Positions 1-52,076 of a DNA stretch of 64,000 bases are shown in pieces (within the stretch, counting starts at the first letter, position 1; each line of letters starts with the position of its first letter). The notes below the pieces were generated by a model. That model worked only from the letters and a program-made list of their open reading frames with translations, made no database searches and was not told the DNA's origin. Location of the stretch: assembly GCA_026418295.1 (NCBI GenBank), contig JAOABP010000002.1, positions 26,244-90,243 on the forward strand, read 5' to 3'. A program made the translations under genes and the position numbers. Source of the stretch: a candidate division WOR-3 bacterium (GTDB taxonomy: Bacteria; Hydrothermota; Tepidihabitantia; Tepidihabitantales; Tepidihabitantaceae).

Positions 1-1
1 A

Positions 2-1309
<1,308 letters not shown>

Positions 1310-1379: not shown

Positions 1380-1732
1380 GGGGGCGAATGGCTTCGACGG
1401 AGTGCCTGAGGGGCTCAGGGGCATAGCGAGGCTCCTCTGTTGCCTCGTTAATACCAACAGAGGAACTACAGCTGCCAACAGCAGCTACGCACTGGCTGCC
1501 TAAAGCGAGGTAGCCCCTGGACCGGCGAGTTTCACCCGGCGCCGGCTCCGGGTCTAACAGGGTGATCAAGACCGAATCTGTGTCTCAGGGGTTCGGTCGG
1601 ATTACTAACTGAGGCTGGTCTGTCCCCGCCTGTCAGTCGGCTAAGGGACAGATGAGATAAAAAGGACTGACTAACTATGTAGAACCTGAGCTCTGAACGC
1701 TTCGGACGCGGGTTCAATTCCCGCCGCCTCCA
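1380..1732 (+). ncRNA. ssrA: tmRNA (SsrA), tag peptide ending ...ANSSYALAA*
   Basis: 5' GGGGGCGAATGGCTTCGACGG and 3' GGACGCGGGTTCAATTCCCGCCGCCTCCA closely match the E. coli ssrA termini. Acceptor stem GGGGGCG/CGCCTCC pairs. In-frame tag reading frame …GCC AAC AGC AGC TAC GCA CTG GCT GCC TAA encodes ANSSYALAA. Confidence 0.93.
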
Positions 1733-7399: not shown

Positions 7400-7401
7400 A
7401 A

Positions 7402-8352: not shown

Positions 8353-8380
8353 AAAAGGCGGGTCAAATGACCCGCCTTGT
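8351..8380. terminator. bidirectional rho-independent terminator (GGCGGGTCA-AAT-TGACCCGCC flanked by A-run/T-run)
   Basis: 9-bp perfect stem at 8357-8365 / 8369-8377, between convergent genes. Confidence 0.8.
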
Positions 8381-8395
8381 GATGTTTCTCCTCTT

Positions 8396-11300: not shown

Positions 11301-12118
11301 TCCGCATTGTCCCTACCCGGATAGGTGGCGCAGATGGATTCCAGGATGACAATCTTTGAGCGCCAGCCGAGCCGGGTGCGCCAGTCCCGCAGCCAGACCA
11401 GCGAATCGGCAAACTGCTGGCTGGTCATGATCACATGCTCGTAATTGCCGGGCTCAAGGAACCGGGAACCGAAACTGCCGGTTCGCTTCGGCGGGGCAAA
11501 ACGGTCAACGTCCTCAGGATTGAGCACCAGGTGCTTGACCTGATCGCCGAACATCTTCAACTGCATTTCGGTGTATGCCGGGGTGTGGTGTCTGCCGGTT
11601 TCATAACTGAGCCGGACGGTGATTTCCGAGACGAGATACAGTCTGCCTTCAACCGGATTGTAGCGGACCGGATAGATGAGAAAACTGGCAATCCGGTAAC
11701 CGGACATACTGCCGACATGGGCGAAGCGGGCAGGATTTTCAGGCCAGACTTTGTTCTGGCTGTAGACCGCCGGGTCCGGAGGCACGAACGGTTTCGGCTC
11801 ATAGTTCTTCTTCCAGGGAATCGGATGCTGAGCGGGCAGGACCTTGTAAGTGCCGGGAAGTGCCTCTTCCTTGAAAGATACGATTTCCAGACCGGTGACT
11901 TCGGCGTCTGCCGGAATTGCCACCTGATAGGGCAGGCAGGGCAGGTCCGGTTCGCCCAGATTGCTGATATGGGCGGACATGCCGAAGTCCACGGTGGTAT
12001 AGCCGTCCTGACTGCCGAGCTGGAGCGCAGTTGCCGGATACTCAAAGCTCCGGGTGAAGCTGGCGCCCAGGGCAATGGTCAGGCAGGCAGAGAGCGTCAG
12101 AAATACAAGACGCTTCAC
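8396..12118 (-). CDS. secreted peptidase C25 (gingipain-like) family protein with T9SS C-terminal sorting domain
   Basis: GTG start (VKRLVFLTLSACL… signal peptide) 5 nt after SD AAAGGAGG. The longer ORF-track start at 12193 is probably not used. C25-like catalytic region (…VIAHGAPDLY…ITAVSCNVGQWD…). C-terminal LRVFDASGRIVRTLVNG…GTYTASWNGTDDNGSRVASGIYFIRL…KVKTVLNR matches the T9SS type-A CTD pattern. Confidence 0.8.
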   Translation of the reverse strand: MKRLVFLTLSACLTIALGASFTRSFEYPATALQLGSQDGYTTVDFGMSAHISNLGEPDLPCLPYQVAIPADAEVTGLEIVSFKEEALPGTYKVLPAQHPIPWKKNYEPKPFVPPDPAVYSQNKVWPENPARFAHVGSMSGYRIASFLIYPVRYNPVEGRLYLVSEITVRLSYETGRHHTPAYTEMQLKMFGDQVKHLVLNPEDVDRFAPPKRTGSFGSRFLEPGNYEHVIMTSQQFADSLVWLRDWRTRLGWRSKIVILESICATYPGRDNAEKMRNFIKDADTTWGTIFVFIARPDYPANYYRVARAYGYDFFSDMYFSDLDGTWDRNNNNIFGELADSVDGYADVHVGMMTLNQFSEIANVRSKIIRYETAPDTTGGWWNKILLPNGVTFSDNYNDSIANASPTPPWFDLKMYYSGNGQIQPTPQRYCDSLNSGYTFNSVIAHGAPDLYDLNGSVTSQMMINLTNTNRLNCITAVSCNVGQWDLGSTNGDCIAENMFNHAPNGFIGVMMNYESGWVNVAEKLNYAIGYGFLGFRTARKIYQGEMISYGRNYWVPVILDSQKYRMEIMERNLFGEPATPIWRARPFVPVVSKPGAINIGNNIPVTITVQTPGFAPVESAMVVLQKPGETFVRGWTNASGQVTLLVSCLTPGFLKLAVSGANNIPYLDSIVVMSSGRYVSYLRHYINDAPPGGNGDSIINPGESFRIPMWVKNYGSLTANSVTARLRTSTAGVTVTDSVKTFGNIAGNDSAFNAQGFGMSVASGLPNRYPINCSLVCKDALDSTWISLFTLYVGAPSIVFVNHVVKDSMGSQPNGRLDPSETADLEITLSNSGLGNAYNVRAVLRSGDSRLSVTDSTAVYGNIPAGENATNRTDHFTVYASSAILPETPIPCTLYISADNGYASTAVFTIIVGEIRQVDPVPDNSEPPLYWAYDEVDILYPEHPTFEWVEIYGIGTRLSLTDDQTVQISLPPAFGPFIFYGQSYNQISICSNGWIAPGYTTATNYSNTALPNTDMPPLIAANWDDLYPPYGDSVWYYHDAANHRFIIEWDSVHYFSSSEWEKFEIILYDTTYAAEDGNSKFVIQYLTANRAGRSATVGIQDHTKTKYIQMLFDGAYHRGASPWVPGHAIKFSSDNPTGIAEDLGVTLLKDGRILAVAPSLFRRTTVIRYQIPQDGSAELRVFDASGRIVRTLVNGRMKAGTYTASWNGTDDNGSRVASGIYFIRLTTPETSVKVKTVLNR

Positions 12119-12240
12119 TTGACCTCCTTTTTGCTCTGACAGCGTTTTGTTCTGTGTCATAAAGCAGGCCCGAGCCTGGTCAAACTGACACAATGTAAAA
12201 TTATCACCCGGCAGGCACCGATGTCAACAATTAATTTCAT

Positions 12241-17736: not shown

Positions 17737-20700
17737 TCAATCTGATGGCAGAAGTTCTGCCTCAACCTGCGGATAGAGCCGGTCAATCTGCCGTTGAATT
17801 TCAACTGTCTTTTTGATGGCGGTTACAATCCCGCAGTAGTGCCGGATTTCCTCGGTGGTCAGCTGTCTGCCGGTGCGGTCCTTGAGCCATTTGGCACACA
17901 CCTGATACCCGCCGATCTGATAGCTCCAGACCTCGGGTGGAACCGGTGCGAAAAATTTGCCGGCGTTGATGAACACCTGCCGGTCCTCATAGCGCACCTT
18001 TTCAATCAGGTTTGTTCCCCTGCCCTGGAACCGGACCGCGGGCGGGTCCAGTTCTGCCGATTTCAGCAGATGCAGGTCAGCGAGCCTTCTGCCCAGCTGT
18101 GCCAGCCGGCGGAAAAGCGGATAACTGCGGGTGAAGGGAATGCGGGGAAAGTCAAACTTGAGAAACTCCGCATATTTCTGCCGGTAGATATCTGAATACA
18201 GCACCGCATAGGTATAATAGAGAATGTCTTCAGGTGCGGGCGAGCGGTTATAGGCACTGCGGAGCCGGTCAAAAATTTCAGGTGCGATGTTCGGCTCCGG
18301 TCTGACCCCGCTCCTTCGCCGGACCGGGAAAAGCTCATCCCTGCCGGTGTCCGGATAGAGGTAAAGGGGGAATAATGATTCACATCCTTTATTGTCAGAG
18401 CGAATAACGCCGTCAGATATCATATGCTCTGTAATAAAAACATAATTGCAAGGATGTGTAGGAAGCATTTGCCTTCTTGTTATTAGCCCCAAATTCTCCT
18501 GCATCATATGCCGCATGACCTCCTCCCGCGGGCGCCAGACTACAGATTTGTGGTAATAAATATATCTCACATCAAATGGTCGATAGAGAATTTTTGTGAA
18601 GTACTTTTCCCAGTTTTCCACCCTCATCAATTCTTGGCGTGCCCTTGAAACCCGCCACATATAATTTTCTGTGAGCTCCAACCCCTTTTTTATAATCGCA
18701 TCCGAGAGGTCTTTATTGAGAAATGTCATTATTCTTGCCTTGAGAGGCTGGAGTTCAAAGTCAATTACAAAGTGGTCACGGGCAGTAACAATACCGGTCA
18801 CATTGACTGGGAAAATTGATGTTACTTGATAGAAACTCTCATACTCTATTTTACCCTTACCCCTCATTGGTACAAACAGGTAATAGGGTTTAACTGGTGC
18901 AACATCTCTCCAACTCGTTTTGTCAATGTCATTCTTCATGAGCCAACCGTACTTTCTATCTCTTGTTCCCCAGATTTCTGAATGGTGAACCCGGCAGGCG
19001 GTTGTGCCGTTACGGTATTTGACCATCAGGGCGATTGCCACTCCCTGCCGGATGTCAAACACATTTTCATCCTTTGAGCCGTCCGGACACCGCTCCTTCT
19101 TCAGGCTGTTGCCGTGCAGGTCCAGGATGTAGATTTCGTTGAAGGTCTTCATCAGCGACTGGCGCATGCCCCGGAAGGTCGGGTTGTCAAGGTAGCTGTG
19201 ATTGGTGATGAAGCCGACCACCCCTTCGCCTGCCTGGCTGATCTTCCACTGGGCAAAGCGGATGAACTTCACATAGTCATCCTGCAGCCAGACTTTTCTT
19301 TCTTTTAAAGGTTCGCCATCGACATGGTAGTAGCTCTGAACCCCGTCCCGGTCCTCCTTGAGGAAGTTGACCATTTCCGGCTTCATATTGGCGGAGATGC
19401 CGGAATAGGGCGGGTTGCCGATGATGACGAGAATCGGCGTTTCCCGCTTGACCCGGACCGCCAGCCGGGACTCGGTTGAGAGCGATGCCATTCCGGGCAG
19501 GCGGGTTTCGGGCAGGGTCTCCATCTCCAGCGTGTTGGTCAGATACAGTTTGACCCGCTCGTCCGGTTTTAACCGGTAGCCCAGCTCCTCAAGCAGAAAC
19601 GCCATCTTCAGGTGTCCCACCGCATAGGGCGCCATCATCAGTTCAAAGGCATAGAAGTTCTCCAGGATGTGCTCGCGGATGAAGTTTTCCTGTGCCCCTT
19701 CGCCATACCGTGCGGTAAACTCCTTGACCGCCAGTTTCGCCGCTTCGGCAAGGAAGGTCAGGGTGCCGGCAGCCGGGTCCAGGACTGTAACCGAGCTGTT
19801 TGCCAGTCCCTCCTGGCGGTTGAACCGGTCCTTGAGAATTTTGTTGACCGAGCGGACGATATAGGAGACCACCGGTTCGGGCGTATAATAGACACCGCGC
19901 CTTTCCCGGGTTTCCGGGTCGTAGACCGCAAGGAAGGTTTCATAGAAGTGGACCACCGGATCACTGCCCCTGCCTTCATGAAAATACTGGTGCAGGATGT
20001 TTTTGACATCGGTAACCGAGAGCACCTCTGCAATGTCGTCAATGATCCATTCCATCGGTTCCGGCAGGTCCTCGAGCGAGATATAGCGGAAGATGTCACG
20101 CAGGATGCCGATTGTGTGCGGGATATTGTCATAGGCAAGCCGGCGGTTGAATTCGCCGGTGGTGCGGGTGCGGGCGGCAAACAGTCCGTAGGTGATGGTC
20201 TGGGCATAAAGGTCGGCAAAGTCTTCCGGGGTGAGGGTGGTGATGAGATACTGCCGGAAGGCTTCGTAAAATCCGGCAAGGGTGCCGGTCTGATCAGCAA
20301 GCTCCTGCTGGAGCTGGCGGGCGATTACCTCATCGCGGAGAAAGCGGGTGCGGCGGGCAAGTTCGCGGGCAAGGGTTTCCGCATCCAGCACGCGGGGCAG
20401 AGAGAAGGCGAAAAACTGTTCGAGCAGGAGGTTGAGTTCTTCCGGCTGTTCCAGTGGTGGCACGAGTCTGAGCCTGTGGGCAGCAAACGGTCTGCCGAGG
20501 AGCGCCTTTTTTACCAGTTTACCTTGGCGGTAGAGCCGGAATTCAAGAAAGTTGGTCAGTATCAGATTGGGGAATGTATCCCGGTAGCGGGTAAACTGTT
20601 CGGACTCTTCAATCCGGTCCAGATTGTCAATTGTTGGCGATTTGGCTTCAATGTAACCGACGATGTGCTGTCTGCCATCCCAGATCCGGAAGTCGGGGTT

Positions 20701-20898
20701 GCCGGCGTCGGTTCCCCTGGGCTGAACGGTGATTTGGATTTTGCTTCTGCCCGATTGAACCGCCCATTCATTGAGCAGTCCGGCAAGAAGCGGATAATAA
20801 CTTTCCTCCCGGGCATCACCGCGGTGAATGAGGGCGCTGATCTCCTTGAGATAGTTCCGGTAGCGGGCAGGTTCCAGCACCTGTTTAGTATTGCCCAA
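17737..20898 (-). CDS. Type IIG/IIL restriction-modification enzyme, MmeI-like fused endonuclease-gamma-class N6-adenine methyltransferase-TRD
   Basis: N-terminal PD-(D/E)xK-like DGRQHIVGYIEAK. MTase motif I VLDPAAGTLTF and motif IV IIGNPPYSG. About 1053 aa single polypeptide. Start codon appears to be TTG (or GTG 6 codons later). Confidence 0.75.
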   Translation of the reverse strand: MGNTKQVLEPARYRNYLKEISALIHRGDAREESYYPLLAGLLNEWAVQSGRSKIQITVQPRGTDAGNPDFRIWDGRQHIVGYIEAKSPTIDNLDRIEESEQFTRYRDTFPNLILTNFLEFRLYRQGKLVKKALLGRPFAAHRLRLVPPLEQPEELNLLLEQFFAFSLPRVLDAETLARELARRTRFLRDEVIARQLQQELADQTGTLAGFYEAFRQYLITTLTPEDFADLYAQTITYGLFAARTRTTGEFNRRLAYDNIPHTIGILRDIFRYISLEDLPEPMEWIIDDIAEVLSVTDVKNILHQYFHEGRGSDPVVHFYETFLAVYDPETRERRGVYYTPEPVVSYIVRSVNKILKDRFNRQEGLANSSVTVLDPAAGTLTFLAEAAKLAVKEFTARYGEGAQENFIREHILENFYAFELMMAPYAVGHLKMAFLLEELGYRLKPDERVKLYLTNTLEMETLPETRLPGMASLSTESRLAVRVKRETPILVIIGNPPYSGISANMKPEMVNFLKEDRDGVQSYYHVDGEPLKERKVWLQDDYVKFIRFAQWKISQAGEGVVGFITNHSYLDNPTFRGMRQSLMKTFNEIYILDLHGNSLKKERCPDGSKDENVFDIRQGVAIALMVKYRNGTTACRVHHSEIWGTRDRKYGWLMKNDIDKTSWRDVAPVKPYYLFVPMRGKGKIEYESFYQVTSIFPVNVTGIVTARDHFVIDFELQPLKARIMTFLNKDLSDAIIKKGLELTENYMWRVSRARQELMRVENWEKYFTKILYRPFDVRYIYYHKSVVWRPREEVMRHMMQENLGLITRRQMLPTHPCNYVFITEHMISDGVIRSDNKGCESLFPLYLYPDTGRDELFPVRRRSGVRPEPNIAPEIFDRLRSAYNRSPAPEDILYYTYAVLYSDIYRQKYAEFLKFDFPRIPFTRSYPLFRRLAQLGRRLADLHLLKSAELDPPAVRFQGRGTNLIEKVRYEDRQVFINAGKFFAPVPPEVWSYQIGGYQVCAKWLKDRTGRQLTTEEIRHYCGIVTAIKKTVEIQRQIDRLYPQVEAELLPSD

Positions 20899-35938: not shown

Positions 35939-37009
35939 ATGCGCGTGCTGATAACTGCGGGGGAAAAATCAGGGTTTGTGCTCGCAGATCTGCTCAGCAA
36001 AAAAATCAGAGATATAAGCAGTGAGATTGAAATTTGCTATCTTGATCTTACTGATGTAGCCGGTGATGCCTTTGGATTCACTCCCAAGATACTGCCGAAA
36101 TTGCTTCAGGGGCGAAGGTTGCTTAAGCGTTTGCTCTCTTCTGCCCTTAATTGCCAGCCGGATCTGGCAGTGCTGATTTCCATGCCGACTGTTAATTTGC
36201 ATTTAGGGAAGAAATTGCGGGCAACAGGGCTAACGACAGTTTTTATCGCGCCACCGCAATGCTGGGCTTGGGGTGAATGGCGGGTGAGATTGCTGAAGCA
36301 GGCTGCAGATCAGGTAATATGTTTATTCAGTTTTGAAGAACATTTTTTCCGGCAGGCTGGTATACGAGCAGTTTATTTCGGTTATCCGTTCTACGACGCG
36401 TTGCAGTTGGAGATGAGCAGAAGGGAGGTGTATGAAATGCTGGGGATTCCGGAAGACGAAGAATATATCGTTTTACTGCCGGGAACAAGAAAGGATGAAA
36501 TAGATTTTCATCAACTGCTCTTTATCCGCGTATTTCAGCATTTACAAATGAGACATCCGAGGCTTCATGGTGTCATTGTTGGGGGTAAGGAAAGCGTATT
36601 GCCACCGGGTGTAGTGCAGGTCGGATTGCAACACCGTTATGATGTCTTTTCTTGGGCACGGGCAGCACTGACAGTATCGGGGACAGTCACAGCAGAACTG
36701 GCGATTCTGGGAATTCCGATGGTGGTGTCTTATCACCTGGAGCCGGTGAGCAGGTTTCTCGTCCGGATTTTCGTCCGAACCCCCTATTTTGCACTGCCCA
36801 ATATCATTGCAGGGGAGGCAGCTGTTCCGGAGTATCTTAACCCGGATCAGAAACAGTTGATCAGTCAGATTTCTAGACTGCTTGATGAATGCGATTATCG
36901 TCAGACAGTAATTGCAAAGCTGGGGGCAGTCAGAAGGAAACTTGAACCTGCAGGTGCTACCGAGCAGATCGCCCGGCTGATTGTCGGTCTGCTATCGGGG
37001 AAATCCTGA
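35939..37009 (+). CDS. lpxB: lipid-A-disaccharide synthase
   Basis: MRVLITAGEKSG N-terminus. LLPGTRKDEI (LLPGSR-like motif). ALPNIIAGEAAVPEYL near the C-terminus. Confidence 0.85.
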   Translation: MRVLITAGEKSGFVLADLLSKKIRDISSEIEICYLDLTDVAGDAFGFTPKILPKLLQGRRLLKRLLSSALNCQPDLAVLISMPTVNLHLGKKLRATGLTTVFIAPPQCWAWGEWRVRLLKQAADQVICLFSFEEHFFRQAGIRAVYFGYPFYDALQLEMSRREVYEMLGIPEDEEYIVLLPGTRKDEIDFHQLLFIRVFQHLQMRHPRLHGVIVGGKESVLPPGVVQVGLQHRYDVFSWARAALTVSGTVTAELAILGIPMVVSYHLEPVSRFLVRIFVRTPYFALPNIIAGEAAVPEYLNPDQKQLISQISRLLDECDYRQTVIAKLGAVRRKLEPAGATEQIARLIVGLLSGKS

Positions 37010-37045
37010 GGAGTTGTTTGACATTACTTTGGTTATCAGTAGTTA

Positions 37046-37924
37046 TTGTGTGTTATGCTCAAGCACATTGTTAAATCAATGCGTCCGAAGCAGTGGGTTA
37101 AGAACCTGCTGGTTTTTGCGGCGCTGATCTTTTCTGAAAATCTGCTTGCCTGGGATAAGTTGGTGCGGACCGCAGCTGCCTTTATATTCTTCTGTCTTGT
37201 ATCTGGTGCAGTCTATGTCATTAATGATGTTGTTGACCGGGAAAACGACCGTACTCATCCCAAGAAGCGACTCCGGCCAATCGCTGCCGGAGAATTGCCA
37301 GTTCTGCCCGCACTGGTGGCGGCGGTGCTGGCGGTTGGAGCCGGTATCGGGGGAGGTTTTTACCTGAATTGGCGGTTCGGGCTGGTGATTGCTATTTATT
37401 TTTTACTACAGCTGGGATACTCATTCGTACTCAAGAAAATTGTAGTGCTGGATGTGATGGTGGTGGCAGCCGGGTTTGCCTTGCGGGCAATTTCTGGTAC
37501 TTATGTGATTGCAGTTCAGATTTCTCCCTGGCTTTTTGTCTGTACTATTCTCCTTGCTCTTTTTCTGGCCCTTGCCAAGAGACGGCACGAACTGCTCTTT
37601 CTTGAAGGCGGAGGAATTTCCCACCGCAGTGTGCTGGGCAAGTATTCCGAGACGCTTTTGGATCAGATGATTGCCGTGGCAACTTCAGCCACGGTAATTA
37701 CCTACTGTCTTTATACCATTGCACCCGAAACCGTGCACAAATTCGGAACACACAATTTGATTCTGACAATGCCATTTGTGCTCTATGGAATTTACCGGTA
37801 CCTGTATCTGGTTTACCGGCGGGAAGAAGGAGGGGCACCGGAGAAGGTGCTTTTTACCGATCTGCCACTGATCATTGATGTGTTTTTGTGGATGATAAGT
37901 GTGGTGCTGATCCTTTATTTCTGA
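37046..37924 (+). CDS. UbiA-superfamily prenyltransferase, decaprenyl-phosphate phosphoribosyltransferase (DPPR synthase)-like
   Basis: MRPKQWVKNLLV…YVINDVVDRENDRTHPKKRLRPIAAG…LAKRRHEL aligns motif-for-motif with Rv3806c-type enzymes. Multi-TM. Confidence 0.8.
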   Translation: MCVMLKHIVKSMRPKQWVKNLLVFAALIFSENLLAWDKLVRTAAAFIFFCLVSGAVYVINDVVDRENDRTHPKKRLRPIAAGELPVLPALVAAVLAVGAGIGGGFYLNWRFGLVIAIYFLLQLGYSFVLKKIVVLDVMVVAAGFALRAISGTYVIAVQISPWLFVCTILLALFLALAKRRHELLFLEGGGISHRSVLGKYSETLLDQMIAVATSATVITYCLYTIAPETVHKFGTHNLILTMPFVLYGIYRYLYLVYRREEGGAPEKVLFTDLPLIIDVFLWMISVVLILYF

Positions 37925-40202
37925 ACCGGGGAAAAATAAATAAAATTGCAGACACTGCCAGCAGAGTCACGATGCTGATGAAGAGTCCGATGTTGAGCAG
38001 TTGCCGGTCGTAATAAAGGATAACTGTATGAGTTCCGGCAGGAAGAGCCAATGCGCGCAGGCAGTAATCTGCTCGGAGGATTTCTGCCGGACGACCGTCA
38101 ATGGTTGCGCGCCAGTCCGGATAGAATATTTCGGATATCATCAACAGAGTCGCCCGTTTGAGTTCCCCGTGGAGCATCATCTTTTCCGGCTGACGCTGAA
38201 CAATTGTGATTGAACCGGCGGGTAAACTGTCTGGTTCAGGCAGCGGTTCAGGAGTCTTTTCCAGTACAGCAATTCGCCGGTAATCAAAATCCGGTTCGCT
38301 GAGTCTGGTCAGAATTTCGCGGCGGTCTTTTACAACTACAAAGGTATCGGTCAGCCAGACACGGGGAAGGGCATCAGGATTCCGGACTAATCCGGTGGAA
38401 CGGTTGACCGAGTCTACCATTATCTGATACCGGACATTGAGCAGGTTGTTCTTACGCTGCTGGGGTATGTCAAAGGTTACATAGTCAATGAGTTTCAATG
38501 GTGTGTATCCTTCCAGCAGTTCCAGTTGCCAGAGCAGGCCTTCGTTGCGTTGCAGGACCATATACTGTCCCACCCGGGCGTTGATCCGGAAGGGGTAAGT
38601 GCGGGATTCCTGAACAAGCTGGTCGATGAATGGACGTCGGGGATAGAACTCTTCCGGTCCTACCGAGCTCTGATTAAACCTGTGTCCGAACTGGTAAAGG
38701 TCAAGAAAGCTCACCACGAGCAGAATGGCGGCAAAGCCACTGCTTTTTCCCCGGTTGCGGAGTGTCAGCCAGCTGAAGAAAAGCGCTGCTGTGACGAGAA
38801 GAACAAATAATAGTGACTGCTTGAGGGCGTTGCTGAAGATAGATGTTTCATTCAGTGCCGGAAATATCCGGTTAAAGGCGCCGGCTAATAGTGCAAGGTT
38901 GAAGACAATCGCGTACGCCAGCAGACCGAAACCCGGTATCAGCAGCCGTTTAACCGGCAGTTTTGAATTCAGAAGCACATCGATTCCCTGTCCGGCAAAG
39001 AAGGCAAAGGCGATGGTAAAGAGATTTATGAACCGTGCCGGTATTCGAAAGCGGTTGAAGCCGGGCAGGAGTTCGAAAGTCAACCGATAAAACGGGGTGT
39101 ATTTCCCGAGTGCCAACAGCAGGGCGACCAATGCCAGCAGGGCGAAGTGCCAGCGAAGCCGGTGTTTACTGAAGGCAATACCGATAATGCCCAGAAAGAA
39201 GGGGATAATTCCGAAATAAACAGCGGTTTCCCAGTAGCTGTAGGCAGCGGGATTGCCCCAGAATTCTACAGTATCAGTGCCGCTGCCGGTAATACTTCCG
39301 AAGAATTTGGGTATGAATATTGTGATCAAAAATGACGGCGACAGGGACAGTTCGGCTGATTCTGCATAGGTCATCAGCTCTCGCACTGTAAAGGAGGAAA
39401 ACCGGTATGAGGGAAGATAGGCGCAGGCGGCAAGGGCAAAGCCGGTGAGAATGCTCAGGAGGAACAGCGGCAGGTGAGTGGTGAGAATAAGCCGGCGTTC
39501 AGCACGCCAGCTGGAGATAATGTGAAGCAGAAATAAAAATCCCAGGGCGTATACCATATGTAATGTCATCTGGGGATGCCCGGCAAGATTGGCGATGCCG
39601 AGAAGCATTCCGCCCACCAGTGCATCTCGGATGTGCCGTGAGCTGAGCGTCCGGTAAAAGAACAGCAGAATCAGGGGAAACCAGGCAAAGGTGCTGATCA
39701 GAGTCAGATGGATGATATGCATAATCATGAAGCCGGAAAAGGCAAAGGTCATTCCGCTGATGAGACCGGCAAGTGGTGATGCCCGGAGTTCCCGCATCAG
39801 GAGATAAAATCCGACTCCTCCGAGCAGGATGTGTAAAATACATTTGAATTCCACGATCCAGAAGACCAGCCGCTGACTGCTGGTGGAAAGAAATGCCAGC
39901 AGCCAGTTCAGGGGGTAGAATACCTGGGTCTGAATATCGGCAAGAAACGGCATTCCGCCGAACATATACGGGTTCCAGACCGGGATTGTCAACTGGCGCA
40001 GCTGGTTGAAGAGGAAGTAGTGAAATGGGTAATACTGATAAAGAATATCCTCCCAGAAAAAACTTCTGCCATTAAGAGTGTTCCAGAAATAGACCAAGAC
40101 CGCAAGGCTGAGTACCAGATGGGGTAATAATTTCCGGATCAAACCGGCGTTTTTGACCGGAATTGGTGGTCGGACCGGAGGTCTGCGGCTCCGGCGTTTC
40201 AT
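37872..40202 (-). CDS. YfhO-family integral membrane protein (GT-C-like putative glycosyltransferase)
   Basis: N-terminal FFWEDILYQYYPF…PVWNPYMFGGMPF. More than 12 predicted TM helices plus a large C-terminal extracytoplasmic domain. Convergent 53-nt overlap with the UbiA gene. Confidence 0.65.
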   Translation of the reverse strand: MKRRSRRPPVRPPIPVKNAGLIRKLLPHLVLSLAVLVYFWNTLNGRSFFWEDILYQYYPFHYFLFNQLRQLTIPVWNPYMFGGMPFLADIQTQVFYPLNWLLAFLSTSSQRLVFWIVEFKCILHILLGGVGFYLLMRELRASPLAGLISGMTFAFSGFMIMHIIHLTLISTFAWFPLILLFFYRTLSSRHIRDALVGGMLLGIANLAGHPQMTLHMVYALGFLFLLHIISSWRAERRLILTTHLPLFLLSILTGFALAACAYLPSYRFSSFTVRELMTYAESAELSLSPSFLITIFIPKFFGSITGSGTDTVEFWGNPAAYSYWETAVYFGIIPFFLGIIGIAFSKHRLRWHFALLALVALLLALGKYTPFYRLTFELLPGFNRFRIPARFINLFTIAFAFFAGQGIDVLLNSKLPVKRLLIPGFGLLAYAIVFNLALLAGAFNRIFPALNETSIFSNALKQSLLFVLLVTAALFFSWLTLRNRGKSSGFAAILLVVSFLDLYQFGHRFNQSSVGPEEFYPRRPFIDQLVQESRTYPFRINARVGQYMVLQRNEGLLWQLELLEGYTPLKLIDYVTFDIPQQRKNNLLNVRYQIMVDSVNRSTGLVRNPDALPRVWLTDTFVVVKDRREILTRLSEPDFDYRRIAVLEKTPEPLPEPDSLPAGSITIVQRQPEKMMLHGELKRATLLMISEIFYPDWRATIDGRPAEILRADYCLRALALPAGTHTVILYYDRQLLNIGLFISIVTLLAVSAILFIFPRFRNKGSAPHLSSTKTHQ

Positions 40203-41308
40203 TGCTGGATAACCGGACGGGCAGGTGTATATTGCTGCAGCTGTCTTTTGCCCCGGGCGGCTTTCTCTCCAAATGGACCCTGGCGAATTACTGCCAGTTC
40301 CCGCCGGGCATCACGGATAATCGCCTCAGCTTCCGGGTTAGCTTCTTTACCTTTAAGAGACAGAAAGGCATGAGCACCAGCAATTCTGCCTTCTAAAATT
40401 GCGGTCGATGCTTCTTCAATTCCGCTGACATCACCGGCGACATAGACTCCGGGGACACTGGTCTGCAGGTTTTCATCATGCCAGGCAACCAAGCCTCCCA
40501 GTTCCGGAATATACACAAGATAACAGTCGATTTGAGATAACAATTCTATCAATGGGGAGAGTCCTACTGCCAGACAGATAGTATCGACCTTCAGTTTTCT
40601 CTCCGACCCTTTTATCGGACGGAATTTCCGGTTCACTCTGCAGATAACCGCACCGGTTACATATTCTTTCCCCAGTGCAGCTTTGATCGTGTGGGAGGTC
40701 AGGATTGGCACCCCGCAGCGGCGGAGTTTAGCAGCATGGACGTGGTAGCCGCCGATATAGGGGAGCGCTTCAACAACTGCGGCAACTTCCACATCCGCCT
40801 GAAGCAGCTGATAGGAAACAATCAGGCCGATATTACCCGAACCAATCATCAGTACCCTTTTGCCCGGTCTGATGCCATAAACATTCATCAGCGTCTGAAC
40901 CGCACCCGCACCGTAAACGCCCGGAAGATCATTGTTTTCAAACAGAACGTTATTTTCATAGGCACCGGTCGCAATAATCAGCCGGTCATAGGTAAGTTTG
41001 GTAAACTGCTGACTGCTGGCGAGGCCGAGGATGTTCGGCTGAAAATGGCCGATCACAGTGGTGTTGAGGACAATCTCGGCGCCGGTTTTGCGCAGTTCCT
41101 GTTCGAGAATGGCAGCGATATCAACTCCTCTGGTTCCACAGTAATGTGTTCGGGAACCGAAGAATTTGTGGGTTTGTTTGATCAGCTGGCCACCAAGCCG
41201 GGGGTTGTCGTCAATTACGGTTACCTGCGCGCCGAGCCGGGCAGCAACAATTCCTGCTGACAGCCCGGCCGGTCCGCCGCCCACAATTGCAATTTCCGTG
41301 TGTTTCAC
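40199..41308 (-). CDS. FAD/NAD(P)-binding pyridine nucleotide-disulfide-family oxidoreductase
   Basis: Two dinucleotide-binding motifs (IAIVGGGPAGLSAGIVAA and VLMIGSGNIGLIVSYQL). Likely GTG start after a GGAGG, just downstream of the 2Fe-2S gene stop. Confidence 0.7.
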   Translation of the reverse strand: MKHTEIAIVGGGPAGLSAGIVAARLGAQVTVIDDNPRLGGQLIKQTHKFFGSRTHYCGTRGVDIAAILEQELRKTGAEIVLNTTVIGHFQPNILGLASSQQFTKLTYDRLIIATGAYENNVLFENNDLPGVYGAGAVQTLMNVYGIRPGKRVLMIGSGNIGLIVSYQLLQADVEVAAVVEALPYIGGYHVHAAKLRRCGVPILTSHTIKAALGKEYVTGAVICRVNRKFRPIKGSERKLKVDTICLAVGLSPLIELLSQIDCYLVYIPELGGLVAWHDENLQTSVPGVYVAGDVSGIEEASTAILEGRIAGAHAFLSLKGKEANPEAEAIIRDARRELAVIRQGPFGEKAARGKRQLQQYTPARPVIQQ

Positions 41309-41318
41309 TCTGCCTCCT

Positions 41319-41651
41319 TTACAGTTTTCCCCGGCCGTGCTGACGCTCAACCCGGACCCCTTCCCGGAGCGGTTCCATACACACCATGGTATTCGGTACT
41401 CCATCCACCACCATCAGACAGGAGGAGCACTTGCCGACTGCGCAGAAAAATCCGCGGGCACGCTTATGCTTTTCGGTATAACGAAAAACCTTGACACCAT
41501 TGGCAACCAGTGCGGCTGCAATCGTTTCTCCAAGGTAGCCCTGCATCGGCTTGCCTTCAAAATAAAAAGTAACCTTCTTCCCCCGATTAAAGGTTAATAT
41601 CGGGTGATTGGTAATTCTGGTCTCTTTAGGTTCAGAGGTTTTCCTGGACAT
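41319..41651 (-). CDS. (2Fe-2S)-binding protein (sarcosine-oxidase-alpha N-terminal-like)
   Basis: KKVTFYFEGKPMQGYLGETIAAALVANGVKVF…GFFCAVGKCSSCLMVVDGVPNTMVC. Confidence 0.7.
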   Translation of the reverse strand: MSRKTSEPKETRITNHPILTFNRGKKVTFYFEGKPMQGYLGETIAAALVANGVKVFRYTEKHKRARGFFCAVGKCSSCLMVVDGVPNTMVCMEPLREGVRVERQHGRGKL

Positions 41652-42411
41652 AGTTGACCGCATTCTCAAATATGACAATTCCATCCGGTTTTGTCAAATT
41701 TTCCCGATGCCAGCGGGGATGGTGTTCCCGTCTGGTATAGCGTTCGGGATGGGGCATCAGGCCGAAGATTCTGCCAGTGGGATCACAGATGCCGGCAATA
41801 CCTTCGACTGATCCGTTGGGATTATCAGGATAGCCTGCCCGTTCGCCCCGGGCATTGACATAGCGGAGGACTATCTGTCCGCGGGCATTGAGCTGCCGGA
41901 GAGTCTCCGGCGTATCAACAATAAACTTGCCTTCGCTGTGGGCAACCGGCAGGTACACGATCTCAGGCAGGTTGCGGGTGAAAACGCAGGGTGTCGTTTC
42001 AGTTCTCAGATAAACCCAGCGATCTTCATAACGGGCGGAGTCATTGGTATCAAGGGTCACCCGCTGTGGTTCAAACGGCTTTTCCAGTGCCGGCAAGAGT
42101 CCGCTTTTAACCAGCACCTGGAAACCGTTGCAGATACCGAGGATCAGCTTGCCCTCGGCAAGAAACCGCTCGATTTCTTCTGACAGATTATGTTTGATTT
42201 CATTTGCCAGCACCCGGCCGGAGGCAATATAGTCGCCATAAGAAAATCCGCCGGGGATTACAAAAATCTGATAGTTACGGAGCAGGGCCGGTTTTTTCTT
42301 CAGCCGGTTAATGTGGACCGTTTCCGGACAGGCTCCGGCAAGTTCAAAGGCATAGGCGGTTTCTTCGTCGCAGTTGATGCCGGCGGCAAAGAGCACGCAC
42401 ACCCGGATCAT
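41632..42411 (-). CDS. purQ: phosphoribosylformylglycinamidine synthase subunit PurQ (glutamine amidotransferase)
   Basis: GINCDEET…PGGFSYGDY…GICNGFQVL…HGEG…GLMPHPER aligns with PurQ. Confidence 0.85.
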   Translation of the reverse strand: MIRVCVLFAAGINCDEETAYAFELAGACPETVHINRLKKKPALLRNYQIFVIPGGFSYGDYIASGRVLANEIKHNLSEEIERFLAEGKLILGICNGFQVLVKSGLLPALEKPFEPQRVTLDTNDSARYEDRWVYLRTETTPCVFTRNLPEIVYLPVAHSEGKFIVDTPETLRQLNARGQIVLRYVNARGERAGYPDNPNGSVEGIAGICDPTGRIFGLMPHPERYTRREHHPRWHRENLTKPDGIVIFENAVNYVQENL

Positions 42412-42512
42412 ATTTTTAAAGAATAACCGGTTCCAAGCGAGTGTCAATTGTGGAAAAACGTCCCTGTATCAGGGCGAGCTTGATTGCGCCCGGGTATCGG
42501 TTAAAACATTAA

Positions 42513-51215: not shown

Positions 51216-52076
51216 GTGGTTGCGCTGATTACCGGGGTCAAGGGTTTGCTGGGTACTTATTTGTCTTTTTTTCTCAGGGCTGAAGGTGTCAGAGTTACCG
51301 GCTGGGATCTGCCGGAGCATGATATTACCCGGATTGAGGAGTGTATTAACGCCATCCACGAGGAAAATCCGGAGGTGATTTTCCATCTTGCCGCCTGGAC
51401 CGATGTTGACGGCTGTGAGGCGGAGCCGGCGCGGGCGCTGGCGGTAAATTTTCAGGGGACCTGGGCGGTGGCGCTCGGTGCGGCGGAAACTGGGTGTAAA
51501 CTTGTGTATTTGTCAACCGATTATGTTTTTGATGGCAGGAAGCGGAAACCCTACCGGGAGAGCGACAGGCCCAATCCGCTTTCGGTCTACGGCAGAAGCA
51601 AATACCTGGGTGAACAGGTGGTGATGAAGAACTGCCGGCGTTATTTTATTGTCCGGACGAGCCGGCTTTTCGGCCGACACGGCAGAAATTTTGTCAATAC
51701 GATTCTCAGCCGGGCAAAGGTGGATGGTGAGCTCCGGGTGGTCAATGATCAGACCGGTTCGCCGACTTATGCGAAAGATCTGTGTCTGCCACTGGTGCGG
51801 CTTGTTCGCTCCGAACATTACGGCATCTATCATCTGACCAATTCCGGTCAGTGTACCTGGTTTGAGTTTGCCCGGGAGATTGTCAGGCTTGCCGGCTTGA
51901 ACTGCAAGGTCATACCGATTACGACCGCCGAAAGCGGACGCCGGGCACCGAGGCCCGCATATTCGGTGCTGGACAATCATCATTACCGGCGCCGGTTCGG
52001 TTTGGAGTTGAGACCCTGGCAGGAGGCATTAAGGAGTTATCTTGATGAGATACAGGCAGCCGAAACTGGCGGTTGA
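51216..52076 (+). CDS. rfbD: dTDP-4-dehydrorhamnose reductase
   Basis: GTG start. LITGVKGLLG Rossmann motif; HLAAWTDVD; LVYLSTDYVFDG; RTSRLFG. All RmlD hallmarks. Confidence 0.85.
   Translation: MVALITGVKGLLGTYLSFFLRAEGVRVTGWDLPEHDITRIEECINAIHEENPEVIFHLAAWTDVDGCEAEPARALAVNFQGTWAVALGAAETGCKLVYLSTDYVFDGRKRKPYRESDRPNPLSVYGRSKYLGEQVVMKNCRRYFIVRTSRLFGRHGRNFVNTILSRAKVDGELRVVNDQTGSPTYAKDLCLPLVRLVRSEHYGIYHLTNSGQCTWFEFAREIVRLAGLNCKVIPITTAESGRRAPRPAYSVLDNHHYRRRFGLELRPWQEALRSYLDEIQAAETGG

What the first reader, a model, noticed from the sequence alone, without database searches (positions are those of the whole stretch)
35939..41684. Lipid-linked sugar module: lpxB, DPPR-synthase-like UbiA prenyltransferase and a convergent YfhO/GT-C membrane protein, then a 2Fe-2S + FAD oxidoreductase pair
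The UbiA protein matches decaprenyl-phosphate phosphoribosyltransferase (Rv3806c-type) motif-for-motif. In mycobacteria that enzyme makes the polyprenyl-phospho-pentose donor used by GT-C arabinosyltransferases. Here it converges on a YfhO-family GT-C-like protein, with 53 bp of shared 3' sequence. Upstream of that gene lie a pyridine-nucleotide-disulfide-type FAD oxidoreductase and a small 2Fe-2S protein. Together they suggest a polyprenyl-phosphate-pentose (DPA-like) glycosylation route in a Gram-negative candidate lineage. If the oxidoreductase substitutes for DprE1/E2-type epimerisation, this would be a non-canonical pathway.
Basis: partly seen in the sequence, partly recalled or inferred. 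Interest (0 to 1): 0.55.

Follow-up and report, generated by a model that had tools for sequence, protein, structure and literature searches.

The report
Lipid-linked pentose synthase beside GT-C transferase
A candidate-phylum (WOR-3) bacterium encodes an enzyme that very probably loads ribose phosphate onto a membrane lipid carrier, next to a membrane glycosyltransferase that could use that lipid-sugar to decorate the cell surface; this kind of system was already described in 2024, and the proposed unusual epimerase step is not supported.

Summary

In sister WOR-3 genomes the same slot holds an AftB-like arabinofuranosyltransferase homologue, or nothing. In other phyla, GT-C, SMR-flippase and SDR-epimerase genes recur near this UbiA. 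A lipid-linked pentofuranose glycosylation route is therefore plausible. However, it is the published three-component system (Kelly 2024), not a new pathway. The YfhO link rests on adjacency alone, and other YfhO homologues sit with their own GT2.

lpxB is an unconserved neighbour. The flavoprotein/2Fe-2S pair is SoxA-N/HcnAB-like and unrelated to DprE1/DprE2. Together with purQ it stays next to UbiA throughout this WOR-3 clade, which is unexplained. No phosphatase, flippase or epimerase candidate lies in the 64-kb window.

Unexpectedly, in other phyla a DUF362 protein directly follows this UbiA in about 37% of loci.

The parts
35939..37009 (+). lpxB homologue (lipid-A-disaccharide synthase), 356 aa. 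It lies 45 bp upstream of the UbiA ATG. It is a neighbour, not a conserved member of the module.
   Evidence: Pfam LpxB 180.6 bits. TIGR00215 gives 157 bits, below the cut-off of 190. E. coli LpxB 5w8n matches at E 4e-30. It is upstream of UbiA only in the window and L006, out of 16 clade loci.
37055..37924 (+). Polyprenyl-phosphate 5-phosphoribosyltransferase (PPPRS/DPPRS, UbiA superfamily), 289 aa from ATG 37055. An alternative TTG start lies at 37046.
   Evidence: NF008977 gives 284 bits against a cut-off of 234; the next non-DPPRS prenyltransferase model gives 44.7 bits. 8j8j (Rv3806c) matches at E 2e-37, with query residues 6-286 aligned to chain residues 15-295 and 34% identity. All PRPP-contact residues are kept and are invariant in 25 homologues. 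The AF2 model's best PDB match is 8j8j at TM 0.82, against 0.57-0.72 for other UbiA folds.
37872..37924 (.). 53-bp overlap of the convergent 3' ends of the UbiA and YfhO genes.
   Evidence: Coordinates and stop codons were checked. The equivalent overlaps in L005, L006 and L085 are about 4-36 bp.
37872..40202 (-). YfhO-family GT-C-fold membrane glycosyltransferase, 776 aa. It has a polytopic N-terminal domain, a beta-rich periplasmic domain and a C-terminal TM helix. Asp52 (motif FWED) is invariant.
40199..41308 (-). NAD(P)H/FAD two-Rossmann flavoprotein of the SoxA-alpha N-terminal / HcnB / PH1363 type, 369 aa. Its stop overlaps the YfhO start (ATGA).
   Evidence: Pyr_redox_2 119.5 bits. TIGR01372 soxA gives 146 bits over profile positions 165-497. 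PDB matches: 2gag_A E 7.5e-21, 1y56_A (PH1363) E 5.9e-17, and no DprE1. An SD sequence precedes GTG 41308. GGGPAG and GSGNIG motifs are visible in the translation.
41319..41651 (-). Small 2Fe-2S protein (Fer2_4), 110 aa, with four Cys spaced C-x4-C-x2-C-x12-C.
   Evidence: Fer2_4 100.4 bits. soxA N-terminal region 44 bits. The Cys pattern is read from the translation. The start was checked.
41632..42447 (-). purQ (FGAM synthase glutaminase subunit), first gene of the minus-strand string. It is conserved with the 2Fe-2S/flavoprotein pair throughout the clade. The start is uncertain: gene calls on identical public contigs give 42447 or 42411.
   Evidence: GATase_5 278 bits. TIGR01737 gives 220 bits against a cut-off of 177.8. 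purQ, Fer2_4 and the flavoprotein are present in every clade locus that reaches that far.

Best explanation
The window protein at 37055-37924 is a membrane polyprenyl-phosphate 5-phosphoribosyltransferase. It transfers ribose-5-phosphate from PRPP to a polyprenyl phosphate on the cytoplasmic face of the membrane. That assignment is well supported by sequence and structure; the activity itself is inferred.

The remaining steps are inferred. The 5-phosphate would be removed and the lipid-linked ribofuranose flipped outward. The enzymes for those two steps were not found in the window. The lipid-linked ribofuranose, or an epimer of it, would then serve as donor for a periplasmic GT-C glycosyltransferase that decorates an envelope glycan or protein.

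In this genome the best candidate transferase is the convergent YfhO-family GT-C enzyme. It occupies the exact slot that an AftB-like arabinofuranosyltransferase homologue occupies in sister genomes. The arrangement would then be a member of the three-component extracytoplasmic pentofuranose glycosylation systems.

lpxB and purQ are unrelated housekeeping neighbours. The flavoprotein/2Fe-2S pair is an NAD(P)H-linked electron-transfer module. It is co-transcribed with YfhO, but its partner is unknown.
For: UbiA as PPPRS:
- It exceeds the curated cut-offs of two DPPRS NCBIfam models (284 vs 234 and 238 vs 207 bits). Models for heme O synthase, UbiA, MenA/MqnP and GGGP synthase score 45 bits or less.
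- It aligns end to end with Rv3806c.
- It has all 11 residues that contact PRPP and Mg2+ in 8j8j. The structure paper says the phosphoribose-binding sites are not conserved in the wider UbiA superfamily (PMC10994848; mapping).
- The structure model is closest to 8j8j.
- Its 34% identity to Rv3806c matches that of the experimentally proven Gram-negative PPPRS enzymes (31-34%, PMC11127046).

YfhO as GT-C.

Coupling of UbiA to a GT-C enzyme:
- In 6 sister loci the slot between UbiA and the flavoprotein holds a roughly 720-aa protein. Its profile hits AftB (9dlf_C) at E 3.7e-20. It keeps the DD motif aligned to the catalytic D61-D62. In 3 loci plus the window, the slot holds YfhO.
- The N-terminal modules of the two families align by hhalign, with DD placed on ED52 (probability 73%).
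- In other phyla, recognised GT-C genes (PMT_2, GT87, AftB-like, STT3-like) lie within 6 kb of the UbiA in 8 of 52 loci that have at least 4 kb on both flanks. ArnE/F-like SMR genes appear in 13 loci, SDR epimerases in 7, and PAP2 in 1.
- The window's YfhO has no GT2 partner anywhere in the 64 kb. This differs from L087 and L025.
Against: - UbiA and YfhO are convergent, so they are not co-transcribed. YfhO is instead in a transcription unit with purQ, the 2Fe-2S gene and the flavoprotein gene.
- The pair is conserved only in the sub-lineage with UbiA identity of at least 80%. That amounts to very few independent events.
- Five clade loci have no GT-C gene in the slot, so UbiA does not need an adjacent GT-C.
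- Characterised YfhO enzymes use C55-P-GlcNAc made by a GT2 (PMC8035078). Distant homologues sit with their own GT2 (L087). In L025 a complete Arn-like operon with GT2, a deacetylase-family protein and an SMR-type protein lies next to a UbiA.
- No phosphatase, flippase or epimerase candidate lies in the window.
- Neighbouring genes are a housekeeping mixture, so adjacency in this compact genome is weak evidence.
Confidence: 0.45

Rival explanations
1. The genes are neighbours by descent only. UbiA makes polyprenyl-P-ribose for enzymes encoded elsewhere, or for a pathway that in other phyla involves DUF362. YfhO uses a polyprenyl-P-hexose/HexNAc donor from a GT2 encoded elsewhere. The convergent pairing is a remnant of local synteny in a compact genome.
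For: - The genes are convergent, and YfhO is in an operon with purQ, the 2Fe-2S gene and the flavoprotein gene.
- YfhO homologues at 45%, 42% and 38% identity have no UbiA nearby.
- Homologues in L087 and L025 have their own GT2.
- Five clade loci lack any GT-C gene in the slot.
- The HCDH/xseA/xseB flank is also conserved in the YfhO-bearing sub-lineage, so general synteny is high there.
- Characterised YfhO systems use GT2-made donors (PMC8035078).
Against: - Two unrelated GT-C families occupy the same slot beside UbiA, and one of them is homologous to a lipid-linked arabinofuranose transferase.
- GT-C genes near this UbiA in other phyla exceed a rough chance expectation.
- No GT2 lies within 64 kb.
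Confidence: 0.35
2. One reading: the flavoprotein and 2Fe-2S protein act on the lipid-linked ribose. They would oxidise or epimerise it in place of DprE1/DprE2, giving a polyprenyl-P-arabinose-like donor for the GT-C enzyme.
For: - The purQ, 2Fe-2S and flavoprotein genes converge on UbiA in every clade locus that reaches that far. This holds in 12 of 14 loci with at least 1.2 kb downstream; the other two contigs end inside the AftB-like gene. It holds whether or not a GT-C gene lies between, and although the outer flanks differ.
- Both GT-C types are translationally coupled to the flavoprotein gene.
- The AftB-like occupant suggests an arabinofuranose-type donor, yet no DprE1/E2 was seen.
- In other phyla the place directly after UbiA is taken by DUF362, a relative of the LarA epimerases (PMC11770544). 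DUF362 and the flavoprotein never co-occur in these loci.
Against: - The flavoprotein is a Pyr_redox_2 protein with FAD and NAD(P)H motifs. Its closest matches are the SoxA-alpha N-terminal region, PH1363 and thioredoxin reductases. It shows no similarity to DprE1 (FAD_binding_4/ALO) or to an SDR.
- In the characterised relatives, this module carries electrons for a separate DAO-type dehydrogenase and does not bind the substrate (my own knowledge of sarcosine oxidase, HcnABC and Pyrococcus PDH1).
- It is never near the UbiA outside this clade (0 of 110 loci).
- The clade is one lineage, so the association counts as one event.
- L094 keeps purQ, the 2Fe-2S gene, the flavoprotein gene and YfhO with no UbiA in the 10.6 kb held.
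Confidence: 0.08
3. The UbiA protein is an ordinary aromatic or lipid prenyltransferase (ubiquinone, menaquinone, heme O or archaeal-type lipid).
For: It has Pfam UbiA family membership. JGI's automatic name for many homologues is '4-hydroxybenzoate polyprenyltransferase'.
Against: - Models for those enzymes score 17-45 bits against cut-offs of 205-392, whereas the DPPRS models pass their cut-offs.
- The PRPP-specific residues are conserved.
- The structure model is nearer to 8j8j (TM 0.82, 32% identity) than to AfUbiA, ApUbiA or DGGGPS (TM 0.57-0.72, 12-18% identity).
Confidence: 0.02

Closest known systems
Three-component extracytoplasmic pentofuranose glycosylation systems: PPPRS + flippase + GT-C. 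The prototype is Citrobacter youngae O1/O2 ORF15/ORF14/ORF12; Kelly et al. 2024, PMC11127046.
   Same: An Rv3806c-type UbiA enzyme with the same catalytic motifs lies in a Gram-negative-type organism, next to a GT-C-fold enzyme with a beta-rich periplasmic domain. Identity to Rv3806c is about the same as for ORF15.
   Different: - There is no fused HAD phosphoribose-phosphatase domain: the protein is 289 aa and consists of the UbiA domain only.
- No MATE, SMR or GtrA flippase and no epimerase lies in 64 kb.
- The GT-C enzyme is of the YfhO family, not GT136. YfhO is not mentioned in that paper or in its held supplement.
- The genes are convergent and not in a glycan-synthesis locus.
Mycobacterial decaprenyl-phospho-arabinose pathway: Rv3806c, Rv3807c, DprE1/DprE2, Rv3789, and the Emb/Aft GT-C enzymes.
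   Same: The first enzyme is homologous, with conserved PRPP and Mg2+ contacts. Sister WOR-3 genomes pair it with an AftB homologue that keeps the catalytic DD motif.
   Different: - No PAP2 phosphatase, DprE1, DprE2 or GtrA/SMR flippase lies in the window.
- The lipid is presumably undecaprenyl rather than decaprenyl phosphate (inference).
- AftB itself is absent from this window.
CsbB-GtcA-YfhO glycosylation of teichoic acids in Firmicutes (PMC8035078).
   Same: The GT-C enzyme is of the same family (Pfam YfhO). The logic is also the same: a lipid-linked monosaccharide donor is used outside the cytoplasmic membrane.
   Different: - No GT2 donor synthase or GtrA flippase is nearby.
- The organism is a WOR-3 bacterium with an lpxB gene and no known teichoic acid.
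- Identity to distant, GT2-paired YfhO homologues is only about 26-34%.
N-terminal module of heterotetrameric sarcosine oxidase alpha / HcnA-HcnB / Pyrococcus PDH1 alpha (PH1363).
   Same: A Fer2_4 2Fe-2S unit followed by a Pyr_redox_2 FAD/NAD(P) unit, here as two genes.
   Different: There is no DAO-type catalytic subunit (SoxB, HcnC or PDH beta) and no GCV_T-like domain next to it. Instead it is flanked by purQ and a GT-C gene.

Membership tests
DPPRS/PPPRS (Rv3806c-type phosphoribosyltransferases of the UbiA superfamily) | Scores above the curated cut-off of a DPPRS family model and far above other UbiA-family models | tested here: met
   NF008977 gives 284.4 bits (cut-off 234). NF008978 gives 237.6 bits (cut-off 207). 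The best other prenyltransferase model gives 44.7 bits.
DPPRS/PPPRS (Rv3806c-type phosphoribosyltransferases of the UbiA superfamily) | Residues that bind PRPP and Mg2+ in Rv3806c: R22, K28, Y70, N73, D77, K87, R90, Q135, Y138, K143, Y157 | tested here: met
   Ten are identical. Y157 is Phe, a substitution the paper notes in some mycobacteria. In the 25-sequence alignment, twelve of the mapped positions are invariant and Q119 is nearly invariant.
DPPRS/PPPRS (Rv3806c-type phosphoribosyltransferases of the UbiA superfamily) | Nine-helix UbiA membrane fold closest to Rv3806c | tested here: met
   The AF2 model has pLDDT 75.8. Its top Foldseek hits are 8j8j and 8j8k at TM 0.81-0.82; other UbiA folds give 0.57-0.72.
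DPPRS/PPPRS (Rv3806c-type phosphoribosyltransferases of the UbiA superfamily) | Transfers ribose-5-phosphate from PRPP to a polyprenyl phosphate | not testable with these tools
   This needs a membrane assay with PRPP and farnesyl-P or undecaprenyl-P, as in PMC11127046.
YfhO family / GT-C(A)-fold glycosyltransferases | Pfam PF09586 above the gathering score | tested here: met
   The score is 38.8 bits against 28.5, but it covers only residues 684-743. All 120 listed homologues carry PF09586. NCBI names the identical protein 'YfhO family protein'.
YfhO family / GT-C(A)-fold glycosyltransferases | GT-C fold: polytopic membrane domain plus extracytoplasmic domain | tested here: met
YfhO family / GT-C(A)-fold glycosyltransferases | Conserved catalytic Asp at the start of the first extracytoplasmic segment | tested here: inconclusive
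   D52 (FWED) is invariant in 56 homologues. hhalign places it on the AftB-type DD motif. Its position in the model relative to the donor site was not measured.
YfhO family / GT-C(A)-fold glycosyltransferases | Adjacent GT2 polyprenyl-phosphate sugar synthase (CsbB/GtrB type), as in characterised YfhO systems | tested here: not met
   No Glycos_transf_2 gene appears in the annotated 64-kb window. One is present beside distant homologues in L087 and L025.
Three-component pentofuranose glycosylation system (PMC11127046) | PPPRS together with a GT-C transferase | tested here: met
   Both are present, convergent, with 53 bp of overlap. That the two are functionally coupled is an inference.
Three-component pentofuranose glycosylation system (PMC11127046) | Phosphoribose 5-phosphatase (fused HAD PRP domain or a separate enzyme) | tested here: not met
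   UbiA is 289 aa with no extra domain. No HAD or PAP2 gene lies in the window. The rest of the genome was not searchable.
Three-component pentofuranose glycosylation system (PMC11127046) | Flippase for the lipid-linked pentose (MATE, SMR/ArnEF-like or GtrA) | tested here: not met
   None lies in the window. SMR/ArnEF-like genes do flank the UbiA in 13 loci of other phyla.
Mycobacterial DPA pathway | DprE1 (FAD_binding_4/ALO oxidase) and DprE2 (short-chain reductase) for 2'-epimerisation | tested here: not met
   The flavoprotein is Pyr_redox_2/SoxA-N-like, and no DprE1 appears among its PDB hits. No FAD_binding_4, ALO or adh_short gene lies in the window. The only SDR is an RmlD/epimerase-type gene at 51216-52076.
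SoxA-alpha-N / HcnAB / PDH1-alpha type electron-transfer module | Fer2_4 2Fe-2S unit with four Cys, plus a Pyr_redox_2 unit with FAD and NAD(P) dinucleotide motifs | tested here: met
   Fer2_4 100 bits and Pyr_redox_2 119.5 bits. soxA subfamily hits appear on both proteins. PDB matches 2gag_A, 1vrq_A and 1y56_A. The motifs are read from the translations.
SoxA-alpha-N / HcnAB / PDH1-alpha type electron-transfer module | Partner DAO-type dehydrogenase subunit (SoxB, HcnC or PDH beta) encoded alongside | tested here: not met
   No DAO-family gene is adjacent in the window or in the clade loci whose gene tables were read.
LpxB (lipid-A-disaccharide synthase) | Family model above cut-off | tested here: inconclusive
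   Pfam LpxB gives 180.6 bits, well above its cut-off of 22.6. The equivalog model TIGR00215 gives 157 bits, below its cut-off of 190. E. coli LpxB structures match at E 4e-30 over residues 72-303.

The most novel reading that the evidence does not exclude
In this WOR-3 clade, the SoxA-N-like flavoprotein and its 2Fe-2S partner would be a new kind of enzyme acting on lipid-linked ribofuranose, by oxidation or epimerisation. Both stay beside the phosphoribosyltransferase gene whether or not a GT-C gene lies between, and both are translationally coupled to that GT-C gene when it is present. They would take the place that a DUF362 (LarA-clan) protein holds directly after the same UbiA in about 37% of loci from other phyla. 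Both would then be unrecognised accessory enzymes of polyprenyl-phosphate pentose pathways, analogous in role to DprE1/DprE2 or the ORF13 epimerase.
Probability: 0.08. Interest if true: 0.75.

Novelty: new member of a known kind. Interest (0 to 1): 0.35.

Why it matters
If the coupling is real, it extends the recently defined lipid-linked pentofuranose glycosylation systems to an uncultured phylum. It would also add the YfhO family to the GT-C enzymes that may use polyprenyl-phosphate pentoses. That gives a testable handle on the envelope chemistry of WOR-3 bacteria.

The wider survey matters more than the window itself. This Rv3806c-like enzyme is highly conserved (about 50-57% identity) across many bacterial phyla. 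In those phyla it is most often followed by an uncharacterised DUF362 protein, not by any of the known pathway enzymes. That points to an unassigned step in a widespread pathway.

The specific claim that attracted attention, an oxidoreductase standing in for DprE1/DprE2, has no direct support.

Tried and rejected
- Sequence searches of the YfhO protein and of its 56-sequence profile against PDB found nothing. Fold comparison was needed instead.
- The promoter/terminator scan of 35.7-42.7 kb gave 8 promoter-like sites against 7.3 expected, and terminator-like hits lay mostly inside genes. It was uninformative for operon structure.
- The homologue search with the flavoprotein returned only proteins of at least 61% identity, probably all WOR-3. 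Its context in other phyla could therefore not be examined.
- DUF362 had no PDB sequence relative and only a weak NCBIfam hit, Npun_F2552 family at about 40 bits.
- 'YfhO' does not occur in Kelly et al. or its held supplement. A search for WOR-3 papers on LPS or the cell envelope found none.
- The 728-aa gene that replaces lpxB upstream of UbiA in L005 and L085 was considered as a third GT-C. It was rejected because it has no TM segments beyond a signal-like N-terminus and looks like a secreted glycoside hydrolase.
- lpxB as part of the module was considered and rejected because it is not conserved.
- One call failed on wrong coordinates.
- The rest of the genome could not be searched for DprE1/DprE2, phosphatase, flippase or GT2. 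Only 10 kb either side of a gene can be fetched.

Full report
**What is in the sequence**

The region contains six ORFs. On the plus strand, lpxB (35939-37009) is followed 45 bp later by a UbiA-family gene (ATG 37055, or TTG 37046, to 37924). On the minus strand there is a tight string:
- purQ (41632-42447);
- a Fer2_4 2Fe-2S gene (41319-41651);
- a Pyr_redox_2 flavoprotein gene (40199-41308);
- a 776-codon YfhO-family gene (37872-40202).

purQ and the 2Fe-2S gene overlap by 20 bp. The flavoprotein gene has a strong Shine-Dalgarno sequence before GTG 41308, and its stop overlaps the YfhO start (ATGA). The minus-strand genes therefore look like one transcription unit. The 3' ends of UbiA and YfhO overlap by 53 bp.

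The window is identical to public contigs of a 'candidate division WOR-3 bacterium' from JGI hot-spring metagenomes. NCBI already names the two central proteins 'decaprenyl-phosphate phosphoribosyltransferase' and 'YfhO family protein'.

**The UbiA protein**

Several lines of evidence place it in the Rv3806c clade.
- It passes the curated cut-offs of two NCBIfam DPPR-synthase models (284 vs 234 bits and 238 vs 207 bits). Models for heme O synthase, 4-hydroxybenzoate prenyltransferase, MqnP, chlorophyll synthase and GGGP synthase score 17-45 bits against cut-offs above 200.
- It aligns with Rv3806c (PDB 8j8j) at E 2e-37, query residues 6-286 to chain residues 15-295, with 34% identity.
- The structure paper lists the residues that hold PRPP and Mg2+: R22, K28, Y70, N73, D77, K87, R90, Q135, Y138, K143 and Y157. 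It states that the phosphoribose sites are not conserved in the wider UbiA superfamily (PMC10994848). In the window protein ten of these are identical. The eleventh is Phe, which the paper notes in some mycobacteria.
- In 25 homologues, twelve of the mapped positions are invariant and Q119 is nearly invariant.
- An AlphaFold model (pLDDT 76) is closest to 8j8j (TM 0.82). It is more distant from Archaeoglobus and Aeropyrum UbiA and from DGGGP synthase (TM 0.57-0.72).
- The experimentally proven Gram-negative enzymes are 31-34% identical to Rv3806c or to each other (PMC11127046). The window protein is as close as they are.

I take the phosphoribosyltransferase assignment as well supported. The activity itself is inferred.

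**The YfhO protein**

**Is the pair conserved?**

I collected 164 loci that carry a homologue of the UbiA, from one genome per species, from metagenomes and from look-ups. I searched their flanks with the window proteins and with representatives of neighbouring families.

Sixteen loci belong to the window's own clade (UbiA at least 62% identical). In all of those that extend far enough, purQ, the 2Fe-2S gene and the flavoprotein gene converge on UbiA. That is 12 of 14 loci with at least 1.2 kb downstream; the other two contigs end inside the AftB-like gene. The gene between the flavoprotein and UbiA varies:
- YfhO in the window, L005, L006 and L085 (UbiA 80-84% identical);
- an unrelated protein of about 720 aa in L004, L007, L008, L010, L011 and L095 (UbiA 68-72%);
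- nothing in L009, L090/L091, L096, L098 and L099 (UbiA 63-67%).

The strict UbiA-YfhO pair is therefore confined to one sub-lineage.

lpxB precedes UbiA only in the window and L006. Elsewhere the upstream gene is a MarR regulator, a secreted glycosidase-like protein or a transposase.

**The alternative occupant**

The ~720-aa protein has about ten N-terminal TM segments and C-terminal TPR repeats. A profile of it hits mycobacterial arabinosyltransferase AftB (9dlf_C) at E 3.7e-20, and a single sequence hits at E 7.6e-7. The stretch [32 protein letters not shown] aligns to ADDGLIVLRTVRNLLAGNGPVFNAGERVEANT. The aligned DD corresponds to D61-D62 of AftB. D62 is the catalytic residue, and it attacks C1 of decaprenyl-phospho-arabinofuranose (PMC12041299). 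NCBIfam's terminal beta-(1->2)-arabinofuranosyltransferase model also matches weakly. hhalign aligns the N-terminal modules of this family and the YfhO family, placing DD on ED52 (probability 73%).

So in this clade the gene that converges on the phosphoribosyltransferase gene is either a homologue of a lipid-linked pentofuranose transferase or a YfhO GT-C enzyme. This is the best evidence that the YfhO enzyme may use the UbiA product. It remains positional evidence from a few evolutionary events.

**Other phyla**

Homologues of 47-58% identity occur in Acidobacteriota/Aminicenantes, Elusimicrobiota, Chloroflexota, Planctomycetota (including Brocadia), Myxococcota, Bacteroidota, Ignavibacteria, Omnitrophota and others. 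None has the flavoprotein pair nearby (0 of 110 loci with at least 1.2 kb downstream).

Recognised GT-C genes (PMT_2, GT87, AftB-like, STT3/DUF2079-like) lie within 6 kb in 8 of 52 loci that have at least 4 kb on both flanks. I assumed a chance rate of 1.6-5% per locus. That is my own rough estimate of GT-C gene density. Under it, the binomial p lies between 2e-6 and 4e-3.

Other expected pathway components also occur:
- ArnE/ArnF-like SMR proteins in 13 loci;
- HpnA-like SDR epimerases in 7 loci;
- a PAP2 phosphatase plus PMT_2 in L064.

These associations fit the published three-component systems. There a PPPRS, a flippase and a GT-C enzyme add pentofuranoses outside the cytoplasm. A phosphatase is required and epimerases are optional (PMC11127046).

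**Counter-evidence for YfhO as the user of the UbiA product**

- Characterised YfhO enzymes use C55-P-GlcNAc made by the GT2 CsbB (PMC8035078).
- A 34%-identical homologue (L087) is preceded by a GT2 gene that overlaps its start.
- In L025, YfhO ends an Arn-like operon (SMR-like, GT2, deacetylase-family, YfhO) that itself converges on a UbiA.
- Homologues at 45%, 42% and 38% identity have no UbiA nearby.

In the window, by contrast, no GT2 exists within 64 kb.

**The oxidoreductase pair**

The flavoprotein has FAD (GGGPAG) and NAD(P)H (GSGNIG) dinucleotide motifs. Its matches are as follows:
- Pyr_redox_2, 119.5 bits;
- the 165-497 region of the sarcosine oxidase alpha model, 146 bits;
- PDB 2gag_A and 1vrq_A (SoxA), 1y56_A (PH1363, the alpha subunit of Pyrococcus proline dehydrogenase), NfnA and thioredoxin reductases.

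The small protein is Fer2_4 with four Cys and matches the SoxA N-terminus. The pair is HcnAB/SoxA-like and has nothing in common with DprE1 (a VAO-type flavoenzyme) or DprE2 (an SDR).

In the known relatives this module passes electrons for a separate DAO-type dehydrogenase (my own knowledge). No such gene is adjacent here.

What remains unexplained is that purQ, the 2Fe-2S gene and the flavoprotein gene stay convergent on UbiA across the clade although the outer flanks differ. A 38% YfhO homologue (L094) also lies convergent to the same triad, with no UbiA in the 10.6 kb held. Because the clade is one lineage, this is weak evidence. I give the epimerase idea about 8%.

**Missing parts**

Pfam annotations of identical public contigs cover the whole window. 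They show a housekeeping mixture: ribosomal proteins, rpoA, the glycine cleavage system, xseAB, gpsA/plsY, glutamate dehydrogenases and others. The following are all absent:
- HAD or PAP2 phosphatase;
- GtrA, SMR or MATE flippase;
- GT2;
- FAD_binding_4/ALO;
- adh_short;
- DUF362.

The pathway, if it exists, is not encoded as a compact locus here. The remainder of the genome could not be examined.

**An observation outside the window**

The commonest neighbour of this UbiA in other phyla is a DUF362 protein of about 360 aa. It lies co-directionally 13-90 bp downstream in 41 of 110 loci with at least 1.2 kb downstream. It was detected in 52 of all 164 loci. It has many invariant His, Asp and Glu residues.

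DUF362 shares a Pfam clan with the N-terminal domain of the LarA nickel-pincer racemases/epimerases (PMC11770544). It occurs together with GT-C or SMR genes in the same loci (L014, L068, L056/L057, L125, L127, L134). UbiA sequences with and without DUF362 are intermixed in identity clusters. It is therefore a candidate unassigned step, either phosphatase or epimerase, of polyprenyl-phosphate pentose pathways. It is absent from the window's clade loci.

**Verdict**

The UbiA enzyme is an Rv3806c-type phosphoribosyltransferase, and a GT-C enzyme is its neighbour. A lipid-linked pentofuranose glycosylation route is the most likely reading (about 0.45, against about 0.35 for coincidental neighbours). 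It is a new member of a kind published in 2024. lpxB is not part of it, and the oxidoreductase-as-DprE1/E2 idea has no direct support.

Noticed in passing
L014:10880-11956 (+), L068:5325-6401 (+), L029:4663-5748 (+), L057:5039-6175 (+) and about 48 further loci: A DUF362 protein of about 360 aa follows the Rv3806c-like UbiA gene co-directionally, 13-90 bp downstream, in 41 of 110 non-WOR-3-clade loci from many phyla. DUF362 is in the same Pfam clan as the LarA epimerase N-terminal domain. It never co-occurs with the flavoprotein pair of the window's clade. It may be an unassigned step of polyprenyl-phosphate pentose pathways.
   Followed up: partly
L004:5448-7619 (-), L008:1162-3444 (-), L010:10863-13283 (-), L011:10873-13104 (-); remote relatives L014:13321-14922 (-), L068:6515-8626 (-): Sister WOR-3 genomes carry an AftB-like GT-C protein in the slot held by YfhO in the window. 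Its profile hits 9dlf_C at E 3.7e-20, the catalytic DD motif is conserved, and it is fused to C-terminal TPR repeats. Remote relatives lie near UbiA-DUF362 in Aminicenantes and Ignavibacteria.
   Followed up: yes
window 40199-42447 (-); L004, L005, L006, L008-L011, L085, L090, L091, L094, L099: purQ, a Fer2_4 2Fe-2S gene and a SoxA-N-like flavoprotein gene form a conserved overlapping trio throughout this WOR-3 clade. The trio has no DAO-type partner, and purS/purL are not nearby. Why a purine-synthesis glutaminase is locked to this redox pair is unexplained.
   Followed up: partly
L025:10748-14183 (-): In a 'Candidatus Zipacnadia' contig, an Arn-like operon converges on a UbiA/PPPRS gene. The operon runs SMR-like flippase, GT2, DUF2334/polysaccharide-deacetylase-family protein, then a YfhO GT-C that is cut by the contig end.
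   Followed up: partly
L064:4924-6165 (-) and 6919-8592 (+): A PAP2_3 phosphatase with a TPR tail and a PMT_2 GT-C enzyme lie 1.8 and 3.8 kb downstream of the UbiA. This resembles the mycobacterial Rv3806c-Rv3807c pairing outside Actinobacteria.
   Followed up: no
L085:10268-12454 (-), L005:7756-9936 (+): In two YfhO-bearing relatives, the gene directly upstream of UbiA, where the window has lpxB, is a 728-aa secreted protein with no TM segments. It looks like a glycoside hydrolase (an NEPN-type motif) and has no Pfam match on record.
   Followed up: partly
window 17737-20898 (-): A 1053-aa protein has a weak N6_Mtase hit and a Type_ISP_C domain. It is a single-polypeptide Type ISP restriction-modification enzyme candidate, sitting between plsY and housekeeping genes.
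   Followed up: no
window 8396-12193 (-); also L004:10035-13679 (+): Very large (about 1250 aa) gingipain-like Peptidase_C25 proteins with a FlgD_ig domain. One lies in the window. A similar one sits beside purQ in L004.
   Followed up: no
window 1380-1732 (+): A tmRNA gene with tag peptide ANSSYALAA.
   Followed up: no
window 1-64000: GC skew (G-C)/(G+C) is positive in 29 of 32 2-kb bins, up to +0.24, although genes lie on both strands. Cumulative skew rises steadily, as on a replication leading strand. GC content dips to 48% over the lpxB/UbiA genes.
   Followed up: no
window 1-1309 (+) and 5433-6755 (+): Two glutamate dehydrogenase (ELFV_dehydrog) paralogues flank a sensor kinase and sigma-54 response-regulator pair (1767-4837).
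   Followed up: no
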